Shown here piece by piece: positions 37,100 through 48,352 of a stretch of 64,000 bases of DNA. The position numbers and the translations under genes were made by a program. Every line of letters starts with the position of its first letter. The stretch's first letter is position 1. Source of the DNA: a virus (Duplodnaviria > Caudoviricetes); IMG/VR virus record IMGVR_UViG_2866816733_000004, positions 1-64,000 of that record; one strand, given 5' to 3'. The notes beneath the pieces were generated by a model that searched no databases, had not been told where the DNA came from, and was given only the letters and a program-made list of their open reading frames with translations.

Positions 37100-37448
37100 G
37101 GTGATCATGGTGAGGCGATGGGCTGGCGCCAGTACGTTGAGGACGTCGTGAGGCATGCGGCGATCACGGCCGGGTGATCACGGCGGTGGCGATCTTGAAG
37201 GAGTGATCATGGCGACGATGACCCAAGATCAACTCTGTCAAGATCAAAGTCACGCTCCATGCAACCGGGCAAACCGAACATTTCTCGCACCAAGATCATA
37301 ACCTGGGGGATATCCCCAAGATCATCCACTTCCCGCTCCGGCAGGGTATTGGCGCCGCCCACGCCTACGGGTCTGGGGCCTTGATCAACTAGCATCCATT
37401 TGATCATCATCGTTCCTTGATCTTGTTTCGGAGGGATGGTGACTGATC
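37100..37448. other. Probable cos/packaging region with 13 GATC motifs
   Basis: Non-coding gap between HNH and TerS; CAAGATCA x4, GGGGATATCCCC palindrome, TTGATC x3. Confidence 0.55.
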
Positions 37449-37904
37449 ATGGCTGGACGCGGCCCCGCCCCCAAGCCCGCTGATCGCCGGGCACGCGCCA
37501 ACAAGGACACCGTCGGGCAGACGGTGCTGCGGTTCGAGCGCGCCGCACAGCCCGAGCTTCCCGACGACGTGGACTGGCATGACCGGACCCGGGACTGGTG
37601 GGCGATGTGGGGCCGGTCGGCGCAAGCCGAGACGTTCACCGCGACCGACTGGTCGTTTCTGCTGGACACGGCACTGATGCATCACGCGATGTGGAGCAAG
37701 GGGCAGTGGACCCTCGCTGCTGAGGTCCGGCTGCGGGTCGCGAAGTACGGGGCGACCCCTGAGGATCGCGCGAGGCTGAGGATGGTCTTCGCGGACGCGG
37801 ATGAGAAGGACGAGAAGCGTGCTGCGAAGGCGGGCGCGTCGGCGCGGGAGCGGTACGGGAAGCTGCGGGTGCTGCCGGCCGGTAAGGCGTCCGGGGGCGA
37901 GTAG
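37449..37904 (+). CDS. terS: Terminase small subunit
   Basis: MAGRGPAPKP, WH..T..WW, AEVRLR.AKYGATPEDRARLR. Confidence 0.88.
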   Translation: MAGRGPAPKPADRRARANKDTVGQTVLRFERAAQPELPDDVDWHDRTRDWWAMWGRSAQAETFTATDWSFLLDTALMHHAMWSKGQWTLAAEVRLRVAKYGATPEDRARLRMVFADADEKDEKRAAKAGASARERYGKLRVLPAGKASGGE

Positions 37905-39601: not shown

Positions 39602-42337
39602 GTGGCGCTCTCCGACGTGGAAGCACCGGATACGGCGAAGAGTCTGCTGGCGTTGCGGGAGGACGAGCAGCGCCGCCTGTCGAAGATTACCGCGTACATG
39701 GGTGGCAGGCAGGACAGCGTGTACGTGCCGCGCGGCGCCCGGCAGGAGTACCGGTGGCTGATCAAACGCGCGAAGGTCAACATTCTGCCGCTTGTGGTGA
39801 CGGTGGTCGCCCAATCGCTGTTCGTGGACGGGTACCGGCCAGAGCGCACTGATAAGAACGCGAGGGCTTGGGAGTACTGGCAGGCCAACCGGATGGACGG
39901 TCGGCAGCACGGCTTGCATCGGGCGACGTTGAAGTACGGGGTGGCGTACACGCTGGTGCTTCCGGGGCAGCTCGCGGAGCAGCCGATGCCGGTGATCACG
40001 CCGAAGTCGCCGCGGCGGTTGACGGCGTTCTACGCCGACCCTGTCGAGGATGAGTGGCCGCTTTACGCGGTCGAGGTGAAGGTCGAGAACCAGTCGAACG
40101 GTAAGAAGCGGCAGGTCGTGTACCTGTATGACGAGAAGTCGCGGTTCACGCTCGTCGGTGATGGGAGGCCCGGCACGCCATTGGTTCTGGCCAGCGAGGA
40201 CGCGGTCGCCGAGCACGGCCTTGGCGTGTGCCCGGTGGTGCGGTACCTGAACGGCGACGACCTGGACGGCGACGAATGTGTCACCGGTGAGGTCGAACCG
40301 CTGTTCGACATGCAGGACCAGCTGAACTCGACGACGTTCGGCCGGATGATGGCCGAGCAGTTCGCGGCGTTCCGGCAGCGTTACGTGTCGGGGATGGTCG
40401 CTGAGGACGAGGAAGGCCGACCGCGGGCCCCCTTCCAGTCGGCAGTGGACCGGCTGTGGGTGGCTGAAGACGCCGATACCAAGTTCGGGGAGTTCGATCA
40501 AACCGAGCTCGGCGGATACCTGAAGAGCGCTGAGGAGACGATCCGGCACATCGCGACGGTGTCACAGACCCCACCCCACAACCTCCTCGGGCAGATGGCC
40601 AATTTGCCTCTGGCGCTCGACACGCCTGTTTTGTCACCCCACGGCCGTAGGGTGATGGGTGTGTTGAAGCCGGGTGATGAGGTATTTGCTCCTGACGGAA
40701 GCGTGGTCAGAGTCAAGGCTGTGTCGCCGGTGTTCCACGACCACGAGTGCTATCGAATGCGGTTCGACGATGGTACTGAGGTGGTCGCTGACGCTCAGCA
40801 CCGCTGGACGACGACGCACTTTGTGAACCCGGCCAATCCGTATGGCCCGGCAAGGCATCTCACGTGCCCGGAATGCGGTTGGGTTCCGCGAGCCCGGAAG
40901 GCGCCAGCGCGTGGAGTCGCGCTCCACAGGTCCCGCTCGCACGGAATCTCCGCAGTGGCGGCGCCCAAGGGGGGTGCTCGCGAGACGTCGGTTGTGACGA
41001 CCGCCCAGATCGCTGCCAGCCTGCGCACGTCGATGGGGACGTACAACCACTTCATTCCGGTTGCCAAGCCATGGGACGGGCCTGAGCGGGACTACAGCAT
41101 CGACCCGTATGCGCTGGGGGTCTTCCTTGGTGATGGCGACCATATCCACGGCGCGATCACCAGCCACAAAGATGACGCGGAGGAGATGGCCGCTCACCTA
41201 CGTGCCTGCGGCGAGTTCGTTGATGTCTGTCCCTATGCTGACGGCAGCGATAGGCGCTACATCCGGATCCGTAATGACCGGGAGCGTTGCCCCTACGGTC
41301 ACGAACGTCCCCGCGGAACGCGTTCGGACACTGCGCGGTGCCACGAGTGCCGACGCATACGTGACCGTGGCGACTCAGAGACTCGGATCAGGGTCAACTC
41401 GACATTCAGATGGCGCTTCATGGCCCTGGACCTTCGACGGAACAAGCACATCCCGGAGGAGTACTTCCGTGGCTCCTTGAAGCAGCGCCTCGCCCTGCTC
41501 CAAGGGCTGATGGACACCGACGGGACTGTGAACCGCGGGCAAGGGTCGGTTGCAATCACCTTGCACGACGAGCGGCTGGCGCGCGACCTCTACCGGCTAG
41601 TCTGCTCTTTGGGGCACAAGGTAGTCCTCCGCGAACGCCCGTGGACGTCGAAGCAACTCGTTAAGTCGGGTATCTGCTGGCGTATGACATGGGCAGCACC
41701 TGACATAGTCTTCCGCCTGGCGCGGAAGGTGGCGTTGCAGCGTACCGACTTCGGTGATGGTGACGGTGACGGGAAATCCAACAGCCCGTTCCGGCGCTAC
41801 GTTGTCGCTTGCGACCTCATACCTTCGGTCCCAGTCCGCTGTATCACCGTGGACTCTGACGATCACCAGTTCTGTGTAACTGATTCCTTTGTCCCGACCT
41901 GCAACTCAGCTGAAGCTTTGAACGCCGCGCGTGACGGGTTGAACTCTAAGGTCGCCGAGCGGAAGAGCACGACGGGGGAGTCGCATGAGCAGACGCTTAG
42001 GCTCGCGTCGCTAGCTGCTGGGGACCAGGCGGGCTGGAGGGACACCGCAGCGCAGGTCGTGTGGCGCGACACTGAGTCCCGAAGCCTGGCGCAGACGGTT
42101 GATGCGCTCGGGAAGCTCGTGCAGATGCTGGGTGTACCTCCCGAGGTGCTCTGGGAGCGGATCCCGAACGTCACCCAGCAGGACGTGGAGCGGTGGAAGG
42201 CCGCGGCAGAGAAGGGTGACGCGATCGGCCAGCTCAACAAGATCGTCGCGAAGCAGACCGGTCGGGTCGCTGAGCTGACCGCAGCCGCGACAAGCCCCGC
42301 GCCGGTGGCGGCGGCGAACGGTGCCGTCCCAGGCTGA
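39602..42337 (+). CDS. Portal protein (SPP1 Gp6-like) interrupted by an intein
   Basis: WQANRMD, GVCPVVRY, GEVEPL..QD, AFRQR, NL|SAEAL, WRDTE.RSLAQ.VDALGK. Confidence 0.93.
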   Translation: MALSDVEAPDTAKSLLALREDEQRRLSKITAYMGGRQDSVYVPRGARQEYRWLIKRAKVNILPLVVTVVAQSLFVDGYRPERTDKNARAWEYWQANRMDGRQHGLHRATLKYGVAYTLVLPGQLAEQPMPVITPKSPRRLTAFYADPVEDEWPLYAVEVKVENQSNGKKRQVVYLYDEKSRFTLVGDGRPGTPLVLASEDAVAEHGLGVCPVVRYLNGDDLDGDECVTGEVEPLFDMQDQLNSTTFGRMMAEQFAAFRQRYVSGMVAEDEEGRPRAPFQSAVDRLWVAEDADTKFGEFDQTELGGYLKSAEETIRHIATVSQTPPHNLLGQMANLPLALDTPVLSPHGRRVMGVLKPGDEVFAPDGSVVRVKAVSPVFHDHECYRMRFDDGTEVVADAQHRWTTTHFVNPANPYGPARHLTCPECGWVPRARKAPARGVALHRSRSHGISAVAAPKGGARETSVVTTAQIAASLRTSMGTYNHFIPVAKPWDGPERDYSIDPYALGVFLGDGDHIHGAITSHKDDAEEMAAHLRACGEFVDVCPYADGSDRRYIRIRNDRERCPYGHERPRGTRSDTARCHECRRIRDRGDSETRIRVNSTFRWRFMALDLRRNKHIPEEYFRGSLKQRLALLQGLMDTDGTVNRGQGSVAITLHDERLARDLYRLVCSLGHKVVLRERPWTSKQLVKSGICWRMTWAAPDIVFRLARKVALQRTDFGDGDGDGKSNSPFRRYVVACDLIPSVPVRCITVDSDDHQFCVTDSFVPTCNSAEALNAARDGLNSKVAERKSTTGESHEQTLRLASLAAGDQAGWRDTAAQVVWRDTESRSLAQTVDALGKLVQMLGVPPEVLWERIPNVTQQDVERWKAAAEKGDAIGQLNKIVAKQTGRVAELTAAATSPAPVAAANGAVPG
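40607..41905 (+). mobile_element. Class 3 intein (433 aa) with LAGLIDADG endonuclease
   Basis: Starts PLALDTPV; block B ADAQHRW; YALGVFLGDG and LLQGLMDTDG; block F VRCITVD; ends VPTCN|S. Confidence 0.9.
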
Positions 42338-43370
42338 GCAGGCGGCGCTCACCGCCGCCTATGTCGCCGAGCAGAGGCTGCTGGCGGCGTCGCTGTCCCG
42401 TGACCTGGTGCTGCTTGTACGGCAGATCTTCAGCGTCGCTGATCCGGGGCAGTCGTGGCCGACGACGAAGCTGGCACTCGACACGCTTATACGGGAGCGG
42501 CGCCGCCAGTCAGCGAACCTGGCAGCGCGCTACTACGTCGACCTGCGGCAGCTGGCTGTCCCGCAGTCACCGCTGAGGCGCGAGGCGGCGATCTACGAGG
42601 CGCGCAGGCGCCAGTTCCGACCAGAGGTGCGCGTGGATCCCGGAACGGGACTCGTACACACCCGGCTCGCGTCCGCCGCCGAAGTCTCGGAGGCGACTCG
42701 GACCATTGAGGCTCCTCTGCCTGAACAGCCTCGCCCAGAGGGTGCGCCTGCCGAACTGGACGGTTTCGCGGACATCAGCGAGGAAGACGCGTGGGCGGAA
42801 CTGGAGAAAATCGCACCGATCACGCTTGAGGACATCGAAGAGCTCGACGAGGATCGGGTCGACGCGAACCTCAACGCCACGGGGGTCGCCTCCTACAAGA
42901 AGGCGATCCGGGCGGGGCAGCCCCCGGAGAGGGCCCGCGACACCATGGCGGTCAACCTGGCGGGGTCGGCGGCCACGCTGGCCCTTGAGGGCGGACGCGA
43001 AACCATCCGCAGCGCCGTCCTGGGCGACGACGAAGCCATCGGCTGGGCGCGTGTTACCGACGCCGACCCGTGTGCTTTCTGCGCGATGCTCGCTTCCCGC
43101 GGCGCCGTCTACCGGTCCAGGCAGACCGCGGGCGGGGCGAAGAACAAGCAGTTCGAGGGCGAAGGAATGTTCAAGTTCCACAATCATGACGGCTGCTCCG
43201 CGGTCCCGGTCTTTGACGCCGATGATCCCGTCCTCGAGGAAGCCGAACGGCTGTACGACAAGTGGCTTGAGGTCACCCGCGCAGCTCCAGGCGAGAAGAT
43301 GATCGACGCGTGGACGAAGTACTGGGATAACCGTGAAGACAAACCCAGACCCGAAACAGCCACCGGGTGA
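42321..43370 (+). CDS. Minor capsid/head morphogenesis protein (VG15/MuF-like)
   Basis: GWARVTDADPCAFCAMLASRGAVY...FH.H..C..VPV. Confidence 0.8.
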   Translation: MPSQAEQAALTAAYVAEQRLLAASLSRDLVLLVRQIFSVADPGQSWPTTKLALDTLIRERRRQSANLAARYYVDLRQLAVPQSPLRREAAIYEARRRQFRPEVRVDPGTGLVHTRLASAAEVSEATRTIEAPLPEQPRPEGAPAELDGFADISEEDAWAELEKIAPITLEDIEELDEDRVDANLNATGVASYKKAIRAGQPPERARDTMAVNLAGSAATLALEGGRETIRSAVLGDDEAIGWARVTDADPCAFCAMLASRGAVYRSRQTAGGAKNKQFEGEGMFKFHNHDGCSAVPVFDADDPVLEEAERLYDKWLEVTRAAPGEKMIDAWTKYWDNREDKPRPETATG

Positions 43371-43788
43371 ACGGATCCTGGTGTGCGGGCCGCCCGCGGC
43401 CGGGAAATCGACCTGGGTGCGCAGCCAGGCGCGTCCCGGTGACCAGGTCATCGACTTCGACGCGTTGTGTCGTACCCTCGGGTCCCGGTCGCATCACGAT
43501 CACCCGCCGCACGTCCGTGCGCTCGCCAAGTCAATGCGCCGCAGCCTCGAAGAGCAGGCCACAACGCATCCCGGCCGCACGTTCGTGATCCGATCCCTCG
43601 CAGACCCTTCCGACCGCGCCGCCGTCGCTGAACGGCTCGGCGCCCGTGTGGTCATGTTCGCTGTCCCCGCTGCGGAGGCGCTTGAGCGCGCCCGCGGCGA
43701 CAACCGGCCTGAGTGGACCGATCAGGCGATCCGTTCCTGGTGGGACCGGTACCGGCCGTCTCCGGCCGACGAATCACCCGAGACCTGA
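43333..43788 (+). CDS. P-loop NTPase/kinase (AAA_33-like)
   Basis: LVCGPPAAGKSTWV...GD.VIDFDAL. Confidence 0.8.
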   Translation: MKTNPDPKQPPGERILVCGPPAAGKSTWVRSQARPGDQVIDFDALCRTLGSRSHHDHPPHVRALAKSMRRSLEEQATTHPGRTFVIRSLADPSDRAAVAERLGARVVMFAVPAAEALERARGDNRPEWTDQAIRSWWDRYRPSPADESPET

Positions 43789-43810
43789 CGCGGCATCGCC
43801 TGCGTCTGGA

Positions 43811-43910
43811 GCCGTCCCGACGTGGGCGGTTTTTCATGCCCGGACGCCGACATGGCGCCGGGCCCGCAACACCACGCGGCCCCGGCATGGGGTCGGTCCC
43901 GACATGGGAG
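43811..43910 (+). promoter_or_regulatory. Four-hairpin leader array with CCGRCRTGG apices; first hairpin is terminator-like
   Basis: Motifs at 43817, 43847, 43882, 43899, each in a stem; hairpin 1 followed by TTTTT; hairpin 4 contains SD GGGAG. Confidence 0.7.
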
Positions 43911-43915
43911 ACGCA

Positions 43916-44536
43916 TTGTCCGAGAACGCCCCCGAGCCTGTCGCGCCCGCTGAACCGGCGCAGCCGGCAGAGCCCGCCACCGAGCCCGCGCCAGCACAAC
44001 CCGGCGAGGTCGAGCAGCCGTCCACCGACCCCGGCAAGGGCGAGGAGAAGGACTGGGAGGCCGAGGCCGCCAAGTGGAAGAGCATGGCCCGCAAGCACGA
44101 AACCGAGGCCAAGAAGAACGCCACCGCGGCGCAGAAATACGCCGAGTGGGAGGACACCCAGAAGTCCGAGCAGCAGCGGCTTGCCGACAGGGTCGCCGCC
44201 GCTGAGGCCGAACGGGACGACGCTCGCCGCAGCCACGCCCAGCTCATGGCCGCGGCAACGCACAACGTCCCTCCGTCGCTCATCGACCGGATCGGCGGAT
44301 CGACTGCCGACGAGATCAACGAGTCGGCGGAGGCGCTGGCCGCTGAGATCACCCGCCTGGTGCAGGAACGCGCGTCTGGGATCGCTCCAGCGCCTGCACC
44401 GGCGCCGGAGCCCAAGTCGGCTCCGGCCGCGACGCGGCCAGTGGAATCGCTAACACCCGGTGCGCGACCGGCAAACGAGGCACCTGCTGACCCCAACGAG
44501 GCGTTCCGCAGCTTCTTGACGAGCCGCCGCACCTGA
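43916..44536 (+). CDS. Head scaffolding protein (TTG start; alternative ATG 43904)
   Basis: Acidic Pro-rich N-terminus, KWK.MARKHE coiled coil, RPVESL.PG; between minor and major capsid. Confidence 0.85.
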   Translation: MSENAPEPVAPAEPAQPAEPATEPAPAQPGEVEQPSTDPGKGEEKDWEAEAAKWKSMARKHETEAKKNATAAQKYAEWEDTQKSEQQRLADRVAAAEAERDDARRSHAQLMAAATHNVPPSLIDRIGGSTADEINESAEALAAEITRLVQERASGIAPAPAPAPEPKSAPAATRPVESLTPGARPANEAPADPNEAFRSFLTSRRT

Positions 44537-44613
44537 TCACTGACCGCAGCTACCGGATCCTGCATGCCACGGGGCCCGGGGCCGCTGCATACCTGAAAGT
44601 GAGGTAACGCCCC

Positions 44614-45576
44614 GTGGCCTACAACGACATCATCAGCCGGGACGCGTCCAACGACCCGCTGATCCCGACCCCGGTCTCCGCGCAGATCCTGCAGGAGATG
44701 CCGACCGAGTCGTTCATCCTGCAGCGGGCCGGCCAGGTCCGCATGTCCACAAAGTCTCAGCGGCAGCCGGTCCTGGACGTGCTTCCTCGCGCCTACTGGG
44801 TGTCGGGCGACACCGGCCTGAAGCAGACCAGCGCGGTCGACTGGAAGAACGTGACCCTGGTCGCCGAAGAACTCGCGGTGATCGTCCCGATCCCCGAGGC
44901 ATATCTCGACGACGCGCAGGTCCCAATCTGGGATGAGGTCCGACCCCGGATCGTGGAAGCGCTCGGCAAGGCGATCGACTCGGCCTGCCTGTTCGGAGTC
45001 GACAAGCCCTCCTCATGGCCGGCCGACATCTACTCCTCCGTGGTCGCGGCCGGTAACACGGTCCGGATCGGCACGGGAGAGGACTTCGGCGTCGACGTCG
45101 CAAACCTCGGCGAGAAGATCGCCAAGGACGGCTTCGCCGTCAACGGGTTCGCATCACGGCCTGGCCTGAAGTGGAAGCTGGTGGGGCTCCGTTCCACGGA
45201 CGGGATCCCAATCTACCAGCCGGACCTGCAGAACGGCGGCGGCGGAAACCTATACGGATACGGCCTGTCGGAAGTCATCAACGGATCCTGGGACTCCGAC
45301 GAGGCCGAACTGATCGCTGGCGACTGGTCCAAGTGCGTGATCGGCATGCGGCAGGACATGAGCTGGAAGACCTTCACCGAGGGCGTCATCTCTGACGCCG
45401 ACGGCAAGGTCATCCTGAACCTCATGCAGCAGGACTCGATGGCGCTGCGAGTCGTCATGCGGCTGGGATACGCGACGTCCAACCCTGTGACGGCGCTGAA
45501 CACCGACGCCAACACTCGCTTCCCGTTCGGCGCGGTCCAGGCGGCCACCGCCGACAACGTCGCCGGCTCGGCCTGA
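44614..45576 (+). CDS. Major capsid protein (HK97 fold)
   Basis: LIP.PVS.QI, PVL..LP.AYWV.GDTGLKQT, EELAVIVPIPE, NLMQQD..ALRV..R. Confidence 0.93.
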   Translation: MAYNDIISRDASNDPLIPTPVSAQILQEMPTESFILQRAGQVRMSTKSQRQPVLDVLPRAYWVSGDTGLKQTSAVDWKNVTLVAEELAVIVPIPEAYLDDAQVPIWDEVRPRIVEALGKAIDSACLFGVDKPSSWPADIYSSVVAAGNTVRIGTGEDFGVDVANLGEKIAKDGFAVNGFASRPGLKWKLVGLRSTDGIPIYQPDLQNGGGGNLYGYGLSEVINGSWDSDEAELIAGDWSKCVIGMRQDMSWKTFTEGVISDADGKVILNLMQQDSMALRVVMRLGYATSNPVTALNTDANTRFPFGAVQAATADNVAGSA

Positions 45577-45656: not shown

Positions 45657-46652
45657 ATGCGGGTCATGGCGATGATCCCCGACTACCCGCCCCGCGGGGT
45701 CGGGTCATGGGTCATGACACACAACCTGCTGAGGGCACTGGTGGAGCGCGGCCACCAGGCCGACGTGGTTCTGTCGGCGGCCGATGGCGACCCCTACGAG
45801 CTCGACGGAGTGCGGGTCTGGCCGCTGGTGGACAAGTCGGACCCGTTCCGATTCATTGACGACGCCCATGTCATCGTCGCGCACGTTGAGAGCGCAAGCC
45901 GGGCGCTGATGCTAGGAGAGATCCGCGGTGTGCCGGTCGCGCAGATCGCGCACAACGCCAACGCGTTCACTGAGGCGGCGCTGCGGAAACGCCCGGCCAG
46001 CCTCACGGTGTTCAACTCTGTGCAGGTGTCGGAGAAGCTGGCGGGGCTGTGCTGCCGATCCATCATTGTGCGGCCACCCGTCCGCGCCGAGGACTACGAA
46101 ACCGTCCCCGGCGGTGCCGTCACACTGATCAATCTCAGTGAAGACAAGGGCGCCGAGACGTTCTACCAGCTCGCCGAACGCCTCCCTAAGACGGCGTTCT
46201 TGGGTGTCCGGGGAGGCTACGGCGTTCAGGTGCTCCCGCGCGGACCTGAGGACCTCCCGAACGTGGAGATCCTCGGACACGTCCGGCCGGACCAGATGCG
46301 GGACCGGGTGTACGCCCGCACCCGGGTCCTGCTGATGCCGTCGGCTCACGAATCGTGGGGCCGCACCGGTGTGGAAGCGATGACCAGCGGCATTCCCGTG
46401 CTCGCGCATCCAGCTCCGGGACTGCGCGAGTCGCTCGGCGCCGCTGGCACATTCGTCGACCGCGACGACCTTGACGGTTGGGAGCGGTCGTTGCGGCTTC
46501 TGCTGGACGGGCGCCGCTGGCGTGCGGCGTCCCGGCGGGCGAAGGCGCGGGCAGTGGAACTCGACCCCACGGCGGACCTGGACCGGTGGTGCACCGAGAT
46601 CGAAGCCCTCGGCCGGAGGAGGCTGCGTGTCCGCTCTCGCGTCGCAGGCTGA
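45657..46652 (+). CDS. Glycosyltransferase family 4 (GT-B)
   Basis: YPP...GS, VTLINL..DKG, VYARTRVLLMPS..ESWGR.GVEAM.SGIPV (E-X7-E). Confidence 0.9.
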   Translation: MRVMAMIPDYPPRGVGSWVMTHNLLRALVERGHQADVVLSAADGDPYELDGVRVWPLVDKSDPFRFIDDAHVIVAHVESASRALMLGEIRGVPVAQIAHNANAFTEAALRKRPASLTVFNSVQVSEKLAGLCCRSIIVRPPVRAEDYETVPGGAVTLINLSEDKGAETFYQLAERLPKTAFLGVRGGYGVQVLPRGPEDLPNVEILGHVRPDQMRDRVYARTRVLLMPSAHESWGRTGVEAMTSGIPVLAHPAPGLRESLGAAGTFVDRDDLDGWERSLRLLLDGRRWRAASRRAKARAVELDPTADLDRWCTEIEALGRRRLRVRSRVAG

Positions 46653-48271: not shown

Positions 48272-48352
48272 CCTTCTTCTCTCGACTAGGCCCGCCAGCC
48301 TGTCCAGCCCCGCAAGCGGGGCCATTCGTGTCCCGCAAAGAGAGGGATCCTC

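What the first reader, a model, noticed from the sequence alone, without database searches (positions are those of the whole stretch)
43811..43918. Array of four hairpins with a shared CCGRCRUGG apex in the scaffold leader; the last one hides the SD
Seen: CCGACGTGG (43817), CCGACATGG (43847), CCGGCATGG (43882) and CCGACATGG (43899), each capping a stem of different sequence. Hairpin 1 is followed by a U-run. The 3' arm of hairpin 4 is the GGGAG SD in front of the TTG at 43916. Conserved loops on variable stems are the signature of protein-binding RNA sites. Established: P22 scaffold autoregulates its own translation. Inference: a multi-site RNA operator (autorepression or antitermination) that sets the scaffold:capsid ratio.
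Basis: partly seen in the sequence, partly recalled or inferred. Interest (0 to 1): 0.7.

Follow-up and report, generated by a model that had tools for sequence, protein, structure and literature searches.

The report
Shared-loop hairpin leader of phage scaffold gene
The gap before this prophage's scaffold gene encodes a conserved RNA leader of small hairpins that share one tip sequence, the last hiding the ribosome-binding site; about 20 related actinobacterial phages have it, also before other late genes, it is in no RNA catalogue, and its binding partner is unknown.

Summary
Four CCGRCRTGG copies lie on the + strand within 91 nt (43817, 43847, 43882, 43899), about 0.007 expected per 100 nt. 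Copies 2-4 cap clear hairpins. The last (UCCC-GACAU-GGGA, 43897-43909) holds the SD GGGAG, 5 nt before TTG 43916.

About 20 distinct homologous scaffold leaders from prophages and metagenomes share a three-part layout:
- A: a terminator-like hairpin with the motif at its tip, then a U-tract and a conserved AUGCCC box.
- B: one or two short hairpins.
- C: the SD hairpin (U/A)CCCGRCAYGGGAG, 5-11 nt before the start.

In 60 distinct units, C, C, G, C, G, G of the motif never vary, while the next pair out is always paired in four versions (CG 29, GC 26, GU 4, AU 1). G-U far outnumbers A-C, so the sense-strand RNA folds. Rfam has no match.

The element is not scaffold-specific. The B+C module (one with an A-like hairpin) precedes terS in two relatives, and an A module precedes a major tail gene. 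This weakens scaffold autoregulation.

Best reading (about 0.4): operator sites for an unidentified loop-specific RNA-binding factor acting on late-gene translation. Rivals are RNase E-type processing, antitermination and passive structure.

A second covarying helix hides the capsid start codon. This scan also noted hairpin-array capsid leaders in unrelated prophages.

The parts
43795..43834 (+). Module A of the window: a terminator-like hairpin (H1) followed by a U5 run. Two competing folds end at the same 3' base. One is a 12+3 bp fold (43795-43830). The other puts the motif at the tip (43812-43829, apex CCGACGUGG at 43817-43825).
   Evidence: Homologous A hairpins carry CCGACAUGG at the tip and are followed by 2-6 U.
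43835..43841 (+). Conserved linear box CAUGCCC (consensus YUUYGYAUGCCC with the U-tract), lying 5-8 nt after hairpin A. Function unexplained.
   Evidence: Present in most homologous leaders, including ones that lack the apex motif (L015, L024, L031), and in the major tail leader of G103.
43838..43863 (+). Hairpin H2 (B-type): GCCCGG-A-CGCC-GACAU-GGCG-CCGGGC.
   Evidence: -20.2 kcal/mol, z -4.7. Best hit of covariance model R1 in the window, 23.7 bits.
43877..43895 (+). Hairpin H3 (B-type): CGGCCCC-GGCAU-GGGGUCG.
   Evidence: -12.1 kcal/mol. R1 hit of 21.6 bits.
43897..43910 (+). Hairpin H4 (C-type): UCCC-GACAU-GGGA. Its 3' arm overlaps the SD GGGAG (43906-43910).
   Evidence: -4.3 kcal/mol. 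(U/A)CCCGRCAYGGGAG is present in 22/22 distinct C units, 5-11 nt before the start.
43916..44536 (+). Scaffold gene, TTG start, 206 aa.
   Evidence: phrog_1793 head scaffolding protein, E 9e-16. DUF4355 match is weak. Start aligns with ATG TCC GAA of homologues.
44546..44618 (+). Second conserved RNA element, between scaffold and capsid genes. The arms GCAGC (44546-44550) and GCUGC (44584-44588) are nearly invariant. A helix GCCACGGGGC (44566-44575) / GCCCCGUGGC (44609-44618) contains the capsid GUG start (44614-44616).
   Evidence: An 8-11 bp helix covers or abuts the capsid start in 19 of 20 distinct loci, in at least 7 sequence versions.

Best explanation
The region 43795-43915 is the transcribed 5' leader of the scaffold-capsid mRNA of an actinobacterial siphovirus-type prophage.

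Shown:
- It is a modular RNA element: A, a terminator-like hairpin plus U-tract and AUGCCC box; one or two B hairpins; and C, a hairpin holding the SD.
- All hairpins present the same top, stem C-C-G / loop N-C-A / stem Y-G-G.
- The top is sequence-invariant, while the stems below it covary.

Inferred:
- The identical tops are operator sites for one loop-specific RNA-binding factor. It is most likely phage-encoded and remains unidentified.
- Binding at C would clamp the weak (-4.3 kcal/mol) stem over the SD and lower translation initiation.
- The adjacent B sites, 17-24 nt away, would provide cooperative loading.
- The site on A could link the same signal to termination or 3'-end formation upstream.
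- Because the same module precedes terS and a major tail gene in relatives, the factor would regulate late genes in general rather than report on the scaffold alone.
For: 1. Clustering far above chance.
2. The same layout occurs in about 20 distinct scaffold leaders whose scaffold proteins share only 32-59% identity and whose upstream genes differ: an AAA_33 kinase-like gene, a small unknown protein, or a MuF-like gene.
3. In alignment A1 (60 distinct units), C9, C10, G11, C13, G16 and G17 are invariant and A14 is 59/60. Pair 8:18 is paired in 60/60 units (CG 29, GC 26, GU 4, AU 1), and in 38/38 among A/B units alone. Overall 70.5% of cells are paired against 33-46% with slid partners. The covariation score is 0.377 against 0.184 in shuffles (0/500 reach it).
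4. A top that could covary but never does, above a stem that does, points to base-specific recognition.
5. Strand asymmetry: 31 G-U against 13 A-C in the variable stem, and 43 G-U against 0 A-C at the closing pair. All units lie on the coding strand. The sense RNA therefore folds.
6. The C hairpin contains the SD in every case.
7. No genome-wide enrichment of such hairpins in the host (7.2% against 5.5-7.1% in controls). The only all-hairpin cluster in 10.2 Mb is this one, so the signal is phage-specific.
8. The B+C composite was found in 3 of 401 genomes of the class, with 0 forward and 1 reverse match to the reversed control pattern. One of the two new hits again precedes a scaffold-like gene.
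Against: - No binding protein was identified and no expression data could be obtained.
- The C stem is weak and might matter little.
- The scaffold is needed in large amounts, so a repressing default state seems counter-intuitive.
- The conservation pattern G-N-C-A-Y also fits the mycobacterial RNase E preference RN|CNU (PMC10641625).
- The conserved AUGCCC box is not explained by this model.
- The hairpin units come from related phages, so they are not fully independent observations.
Confidence: 0.4

Rival explanations
1. Processing and stability element. Host RNase E (or another endonuclease) cuts in the GA|CAU loops. Cleavage in hairpin C would separate the anti-SD arm UCCC from GGGAG and activate translation. 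The remaining hairpins would protect the mRNA ends. Together these would raise scaffold, capsid and tail-tube output relative to the upstream genes of the same operon.
For: - The loop conservation (G invariant, N variable, C invariant, A, then U in 43/60) fits RN|CNU, the mapped preference of mycobacterial RNase E (PMC10641625).
- The modules sit exactly where expression must rise: before scaffold and capsid, before the major tail protein, and at the operon start.
- No sigma-70-type promoter was found between A and the start.
Against: - RNase E acts on single-stranded RNA, and a 3-5 nt loop closed by G-C-rich pairs is a poor substrate.
- The invariant CC/GG pairs and A14 exceed what RN|CNU requires.
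- 15/60 units have C rather than U at the +3 position.
- The preference was measured in Mycolicibacterium, not in this host.
Confidence: 0.2
2. Antitermination signal of the lambda/P22 nut type. A linear box (UUUYGYAUGCCC) followed by a hairpin with a fixed loop would recruit a phage factor to RNA polymerase, so that late transcription reads through terminators inside the late operon.
For: - The arrangement of a linear conserved box, a spacer and a conserved-loop hairpin resembles boxA-boxB.
- From my own knowledge, the P22 boxB loop is GACAA; here it is GACAU.
- Terminator-like hairpins occur inside the late operon.
Against: - The box follows terminator A rather than preceding it.
- The last site overlaps the SD, which a nut site does not need.
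- No N-like protein was sought or found.
- The box also occurs without B/C hairpins.
Confidence: 0.12
3. Scaffold-protein autoregulation. Free scaffold protein binds the loops and represses its own translation, as reported for P22.
For: - The element lies in front of the scaffold gene in most loci.
Against: - The same module precedes terS in L091 and L092, and an A module precedes a major tail gene.
- Nothing in the data links the scaffold protein to RNA binding.
Confidence: 0.1
4. Passive structure with no trans factor. A would be an ordinary intrinsic terminator or 3' stabiliser, and B/C would simply tune ribosome access. The shared loop would be inherited by duplication.
For: - A is replaced by a canonical terminator in L038.
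- Leaders without the motif keep a hairpin plus U-tract.
Against: Simple inheritance does not explain an invariant 9-nt top in 60 units at three positions, kept across leaders of different genes, while everything around it diverges.
Confidence: 0.12
5. Double-stranded DNA sites, for example direct repeats bound by TerS or by a late transcription activator.
For: Direct repeats upstream of terS in two relatives resemble TerS-binding repeat layouts.
Against: - The flanks are variable yet complementary, which a DNA-binding protein would not select for.
- G-U pairs greatly outnumber A-C pairs.
- All copies are on the sense strand.
- The main location is 4-6 kb from terS.
Confidence: 0.04

Closest known systems
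Start-associated sequences (SAS/ESAS) of Cluster K mycobacteriophages (PMC3203893)
   Same: A conserved 13-14 nt sequence that includes the SD, lies a few nt before the starts of a subset of actinophage genes, occurs in one orientation only, is absent from the host genome, and has an unknown partner.
   Different: - SAS is GGGATAGGAGCCC and marks non-structural genes. Its associated inverted repeats do not covary and were judged to be DNA sites.
- Here the sequence is (U/A)CCCGRCAYGGGAG. It marks structural and packaging genes, forms a hairpin, and comes with covarying upstream hairpins.
Coat-protein operator hairpins of ssRNA phages (MS2, Qbeta, PP7)
   Same: A small hairpin with a sequence-specific loop and top that holds the translation initiation signals of a phage gene. 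A structural protein binds it and represses translation.
   Different: Those are single sites in RNA phages that cover the replicase start codon, with bulged-A stems. Here there is an array of 3-4 sites in a dsDNA phage, the SD is covered rather than the start codon, and the binder is unknown.
CsrA/RsmE target leaders
   Same: Several hairpins show the same apical motif, and the last overlaps the SD.
   Different: The Csr motif is GGA in the loop. Here the loop is N-C-A and GGGA lies in the stem. From my own knowledge, actinobacteria lack CsrA.
Lambda/P22 nut sites (boxA + boxB bound by N)
   Same: A conserved-loop pentaloop hairpin next to a conserved linear box, with more than one copy per phage genome. 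From my own knowledge, the P22 boxB loop GACAA resembles GACAU.
   Different: Nut sites sit in early operons upstream of terminators and do not overlap an SD. No N-like protein is known here.
P22 scaffold translational autoregulation
   Same: Post-transcriptional control of a scaffold gene.
   Different: No RNA operator has been defined for P22, and the element here is shared with terS and tail-gene leaders.

Membership tests
Any Rfam 15 family | Covariance-model match at or near the gathering score | tested here: not met
   cmscan of 43000-45000 at E<=10 gave only two unrelated sub-threshold hits elsewhere in that stretch.
Cluster K SAS | Match to GGGATAGGAGCCC with at most 2 deviations, 3-7 nt before a start codon | tested here: not met
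   The sequence here is UCCCGACAUGGGAG and shares only GGAG. The position relative to the start is similar, at 5-11 nt.
Intrinsic terminator (hairpin A / H1) | G+C-rich stem followed directly by a U-tract | tested here: met
   The 43795-43830 fold gives -23.5 kcal/mol and is followed by U5. The scanner's stem/loop limits missed it. Homologous A hairpins are followed by 2-6 U. Actual termination was not measured.
Lambda/P22 boxB nut site | GNRA-like pentaloop (GAAAA/GACAA) on a 5-bp stem, preceded by boxA, with an N protein encoded by the phage | tested here: inconclusive
   The loop GACAY is similar but ends in Y, which pairs with G11. No boxA-like sequence was seen. An N homologue was not searched for.
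CsrA/Rsm binding site | GGA in the hairpin loop (A(N)GGA) | tested here: not met
   The loop is N-C-A, and GGGA forms the 3' stem arm.
Protein-binding RNA operator (generic) | Direct binding of a protein, with loss of regulation in loop mutants | not testable with these tools
   Only the sequence signature is shown, namely an invariant top on covarying stems.
Mycobacterial RNase E site | Cleavage 5' of C in RN|CNU within single-stranded RNA | tested here: inconclusive
   The sequence fits in 43/60 units (U at +3), but it sits in a 3-5 nt loop. Cleavage was not measured.

The most novel reading that the evidence does not exclude
A clade of actinobacterial phages may use one loop-specific RNA-binding protein, possibly a virion or assembly protein. 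It would read identical CCG-NCA-YGG hairpin tops placed on terminators and on SD-occluding hairpins in front of terS, scaffold/capsid and tail-tube genes. That would couple late-gene termination and translation to one signal. A second, pseudoknot-like start-codon helix would set capsid output relative to scaffold. This would be a late-gene post-transcriptional regulon of a kind not described for dsDNA phages of Gram-positive hosts.
Probability: 0.25. Interest if true: 0.8.

Novelty: new variant of a known kind. Interest (0 to 1): 0.6.

Why it matters
Tailed phages must make hundreds of scaffold, capsid and tail-tube copies but only a few portal and terminase copies, all from one late operon. 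How actinobacteriophages achieve this is largely unknown.

This element is a concrete, conserved RNA signal placed exactly at those transitions, and it can be tested by mutation. It offers a handle for finding a new RNA-binding regulator or a processing pathway. It could also be added to RNA family catalogues to improve annotation of actinophage late operons.

Such operons include relatives of the Muddy/FF47 capsid lineage, which have a different conserved box at the same place.

Tried and rejected
- A nucleotide search of 43300-44700 against 50,697 phage records found no match. Rfam gave no match.
- Sequencing runs: none was listed, and no RNA holder was listed.
- A family-wide search for the 13-mer CCCGACAYGGGAG hit 132 of 301 genomes. 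The 30 loci inspected were almost all chance matches inside coding sequence, so this search says little.
- A kissing interaction between the GACAU loop and the AUGUC of the scaffold start was considered. Leaders whose genes start AUGGCC, AUGGCU, AUGCCA, AUGAGU, GUGUCU or UUGUCC keep the same loop, so it is not supported.
- A small ORF starting at the conserved AUGCCC was considered. Its frame relative to the motifs and the scaffold start differs between loci, so it is rejected (sequences).
- The promoter scan of 43000-45000 found none. The scan covers sigma-70-type promoters only.
- Model R1 gave extra hits in the window (57669, 44176). Both lie inside coding sequence and were treated as chance or unresolved.
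- A second motif pair in the own genome (C19) lies before hisD and is coincidental.
- RNAalifold on the MAFFT alignment of the scaffold-capsid gap recovered only the GCAGC/GCUGC helix. The start-codon helix had to be shown by an anchored search.
- Co-occurrence analysis to find the binder was not attempted. Motif-bearing phages form a clade, so the result would be confounded.

Full report
CONTEXT. The window is contig C222 of a 10.2 Mb actinobacterial genome with 65-71% G+C. The finding lies in the head module of a prophage:
- terS (Terminase_7), 37449-37904
- portal carrying a LAGLIDADG intein, 39602-42337
- VG15/MuF-like gene, 42321-43370
- AAA_33 kinase-like gene, 43333-43788
- scaffold, TTG 43916-44536 (phrog_1793, E 9e-16)
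- major capsid protein, 44614-45576
- GT4 glycosyltransferase, 45657-46652

OBSERVATION. CCGRCRTGG occurs at 43817, 43847, 43882 and 43899, all on the + strand. The window has 14 matches on both strands against 9.35 expected. That is about 0.007 per 100 nt of one strand, so four in 91 nt is far beyond chance (about 1e-10).

H2 (43838-43863, -20.2 kcal/mol), H3 (43877-43895, -12.1) and H4 (43897-43909, -4.3) fold with the motif at the tip. H1 has two folds. The motif-tip fold gives -8.4 kcal/mol. A 12+3 bp fold (43795-43830) gives -23.5 kcal/mol and places the motif in its 3' arm. Both end just before UUUUU. The 3' arm of H4 overlaps the SD GGGAG (43906-43910), 5 nt before TTG 43916.

RELATED SEQUENCES. 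DNA searches of phage records found nothing. Capsid-protein searches did find relatives:
- prophages in Microtetraspora, Nonomuraea, Actinophytocola and Kutzneria
- 47 viral contigs and 32 metagenome contigs
- more distant relatives such as Rhodococcus phage ReT1v and Mycobacterium phages Muddy and FF47

About 20 distinct scaffold leaders show one architecture:
- After the upstream stop codon comes a pyrimidine-rich tract.
- Module A follows: a long G+C hairpin tipped by CCGACAUGG, then 2-6 U and a conserved AUGCCC box.
- Module B follows: one short hairpin tipped by CCGACAYGG. The window has two.
- Module C comes 17-24 nt later: (U/A)CCCGRCAYGGGAG, then 5-11 nt, then the start (mostly ATG TCC GAA).

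The upstream gene differs between loci (kinase-like, a small unknown protein, or MuF-like), so the leader travels with the scaffold gene. Scaffold proteins share only 32-59% identity. Roughly as many related loci lack the motif. Many of those still have a hairpin, a U-tract and (C/T)ATGCCC (L015, L024, L031). Muddy and ReT1v instead share GCCGACGGGCUUA before the scaffold SD.

STRUCTURE TEST. Sixty distinct hairpin units were aligned without gaps (A1).
- C9, C10, G11, C13, G16 and G17 are invariant. A14 is 59/60. Position 12 varies (A 45, U 8, G 6, C 1). Position 15 is U 43, C 15, G 2.
- G11 pairs with Y15 (GU 43, GC 15), so the true loop may be the triloop N-C-A.
- The next pair out (8:18) is paired in 60/60 units, as CG 29, GC 26, GU 4 and AU 1. 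Within A/B units alone it is 38/38, with four pair types.
- Overall 70.5% of cells pair, against 33-46% when partners are slid. The covariation score is 0.377 against 0.184 in shuffles (0/500 reach it).
- G-U pairs outnumber A-C pairs by 31 to 13 in the variable stem and by 43 to 0 at the closing pair. Every unit lies on the coding strand.

Sense-strand RNA folding explains this pattern and a duplex DNA site does not. The units come from related phages, so the shuffle statistic overstates independence. The four pair types at 8:18 and the slid controls do not depend on that.

NOT SCAFFOLD-SPECIFIC. In two proviruses (G101 and G102), the C hairpin and an upstream motif hairpin sit directly before terS. 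The terS identity is confirmed by Terminase_7 matches of 1e-15 to 4e-28. In L092 an A-like hairpin also lies upstream.

In G103, an A module (tip CCGCCAUGG, then UUUUGCAUGCCC) lies before the major tail protein gene (phrog_117, E 1e-34). In the window the tail-tube leader (48272-48352) has the same syntax without the motif: a CU-rich tract, the hairpin 48307-48322, then CAUUCGUGUCCC.

The host genome shows no general enrichment of such hairpins, and the only cluster in which every copy sits in a hairpin is this one. A B+C composite pattern hit 3 of 401 genomes of the class, with 0 forward and 1 reverse match to the reversed control. One new hit again precedes a scaffold-like gene.

MECHANISM. 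The following is shown:
- The element is a conserved, modular, folded RNA.
- Its top is sequence-invariant.
- The last unit contains the SD.
- It is placed where late-gene output must change.

The following is inferred. The three top pairs could covary but never do, while the fourth pair does so freely. That points to base-specific recognition of loop and upper stem, as in known protein-RNA operators. I therefore favour a loop-specific RNA-binding factor (confidence about 0.4) that clamps the weak C stem over the SD. The B sites would provide cooperativity, and the site on A would link the signal to termination or 3'-end formation.

The main rival (0.2) is processing. The pattern G-N-C-A-U fits the RN|CNU preference of mycobacterial RNase E (PMC10641625). 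Cutting the C loop would free the SD. A 3-5 nt loop is a poor RNase E substrate, however, and the invariant stem pairs exceed that motif.

The other rivals are nut-like antitermination (0.12), passive structure (0.12), scaffold autoregulation specifically (0.1) and DNA sites (0.04). The AUGCCC box remains unexplained under all of these models.

KNOWN SYSTEMS. There is no Rfam match. The closest described analogue in actinophages is the Cluster K start-associated sequence (PMC3203893). It differs in sequence, in the class of gene it marks and in lacking RNA pairing support. Functionally the array resembles MS2-type operators, CsrA target leaders and boxB sites. It fails the sequence definitions of those that could be tested.

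This scan has noted hairpin-array leaders before capsid genes in unrelated prophages. One has ACGUCAC-type loops (e1-5931722). I did not check those notes.

SECOND ELEMENT. The scaffold-capsid gap is also conserved.
- GCAGC (44546-44550) and GCUGC (44584-44588) are nearly invariant.
- In 19 of 20 distinct loci an 8-11 bp helix pairs an upstream segment with the segment holding or abutting the capsid GUG. In the window the arms are 44566-44575 and 44609-44618.
- At least seven sequence versions keep the pairing.
- The 5' arm lies inside the GCAGC/GCUGC helix and the 3' arm lies outside it. The two helices therefore form either a pseudoknot or alternative folds.

This element is a better candidate than the leader for setting capsid output relative to scaffold.

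VERDICT. The element is real and conserved, and I found no description of it in Rfam or in the papers searched. The scaffold-autoregulation reading is weakened, and the binder and mode of action remain open.

Noticed in passing
window 44546-44618: The scaffold-capsid intergenic region is a second conserved RNA element. GCAGC/GCUGC arms are nearly invariant. An 8-11 bp helix contains or abuts the capsid GUG start (44614) and is kept through at least 7 compensatory sequence versions in 19 of 20 loci. The topology is a pseudoknot or alternative folds. It is a candidate for scaffold-to-capsid translational coupling.
   Followed up: partly
window 37180-37450: A lower-G+C stretch just upstream of terS holds about ten copies of (A/T)(A/T)GATCA (AAGATCA, TTGATCA, TGATCA). 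It is a candidate packaging-site or TerS-binding repeat array.
   Followed up: no
window 48272-48352: The major tail protein leader has a CU-rich tract, the hairpin GCCCCGCAAGCGGGGC (48307-48322), then CAUUCGUGUCCC. This is the same syntax as module A but without the apex motif.
   Followed up: partly
window 43835-43841 and homologous leaders: A conserved box (Y)UUYGYAUGCCC lies 5-8 nt after hairpin A. It is identical (TTTTGCATGCCC) in three different phages and in a tail-gene leader. It is not a conserved ORF start and does not look like a sigma-70 -10 element. It remains unexplained.
   Followed up: partly
L010 2470-2510 and L011 2320-2360: Rhodococcus phage ReT1v-2 and Mycobacterium phage Muddy share a different conserved box, GCCGACGGGCUUA, just before the scaffold SD. 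It may be a distant counterpart of the C hairpin.
   Followed up: no
window 44184-44192; L004 3395; L005 3459; L084 763: Further CCGACAYGG/CCGACAGGG copies lie about 100-270 nt inside the scaffold coding region in several loci, some with pairing flanks. These may be chance, coding constraint or extra sites; this is unresolved.
   Followed up: no
window 39602-42337: The portal gene is interrupted by a LAGLIDADG/Hom_end intein (Pfam matches at residues 617-712).
   Followed up: no
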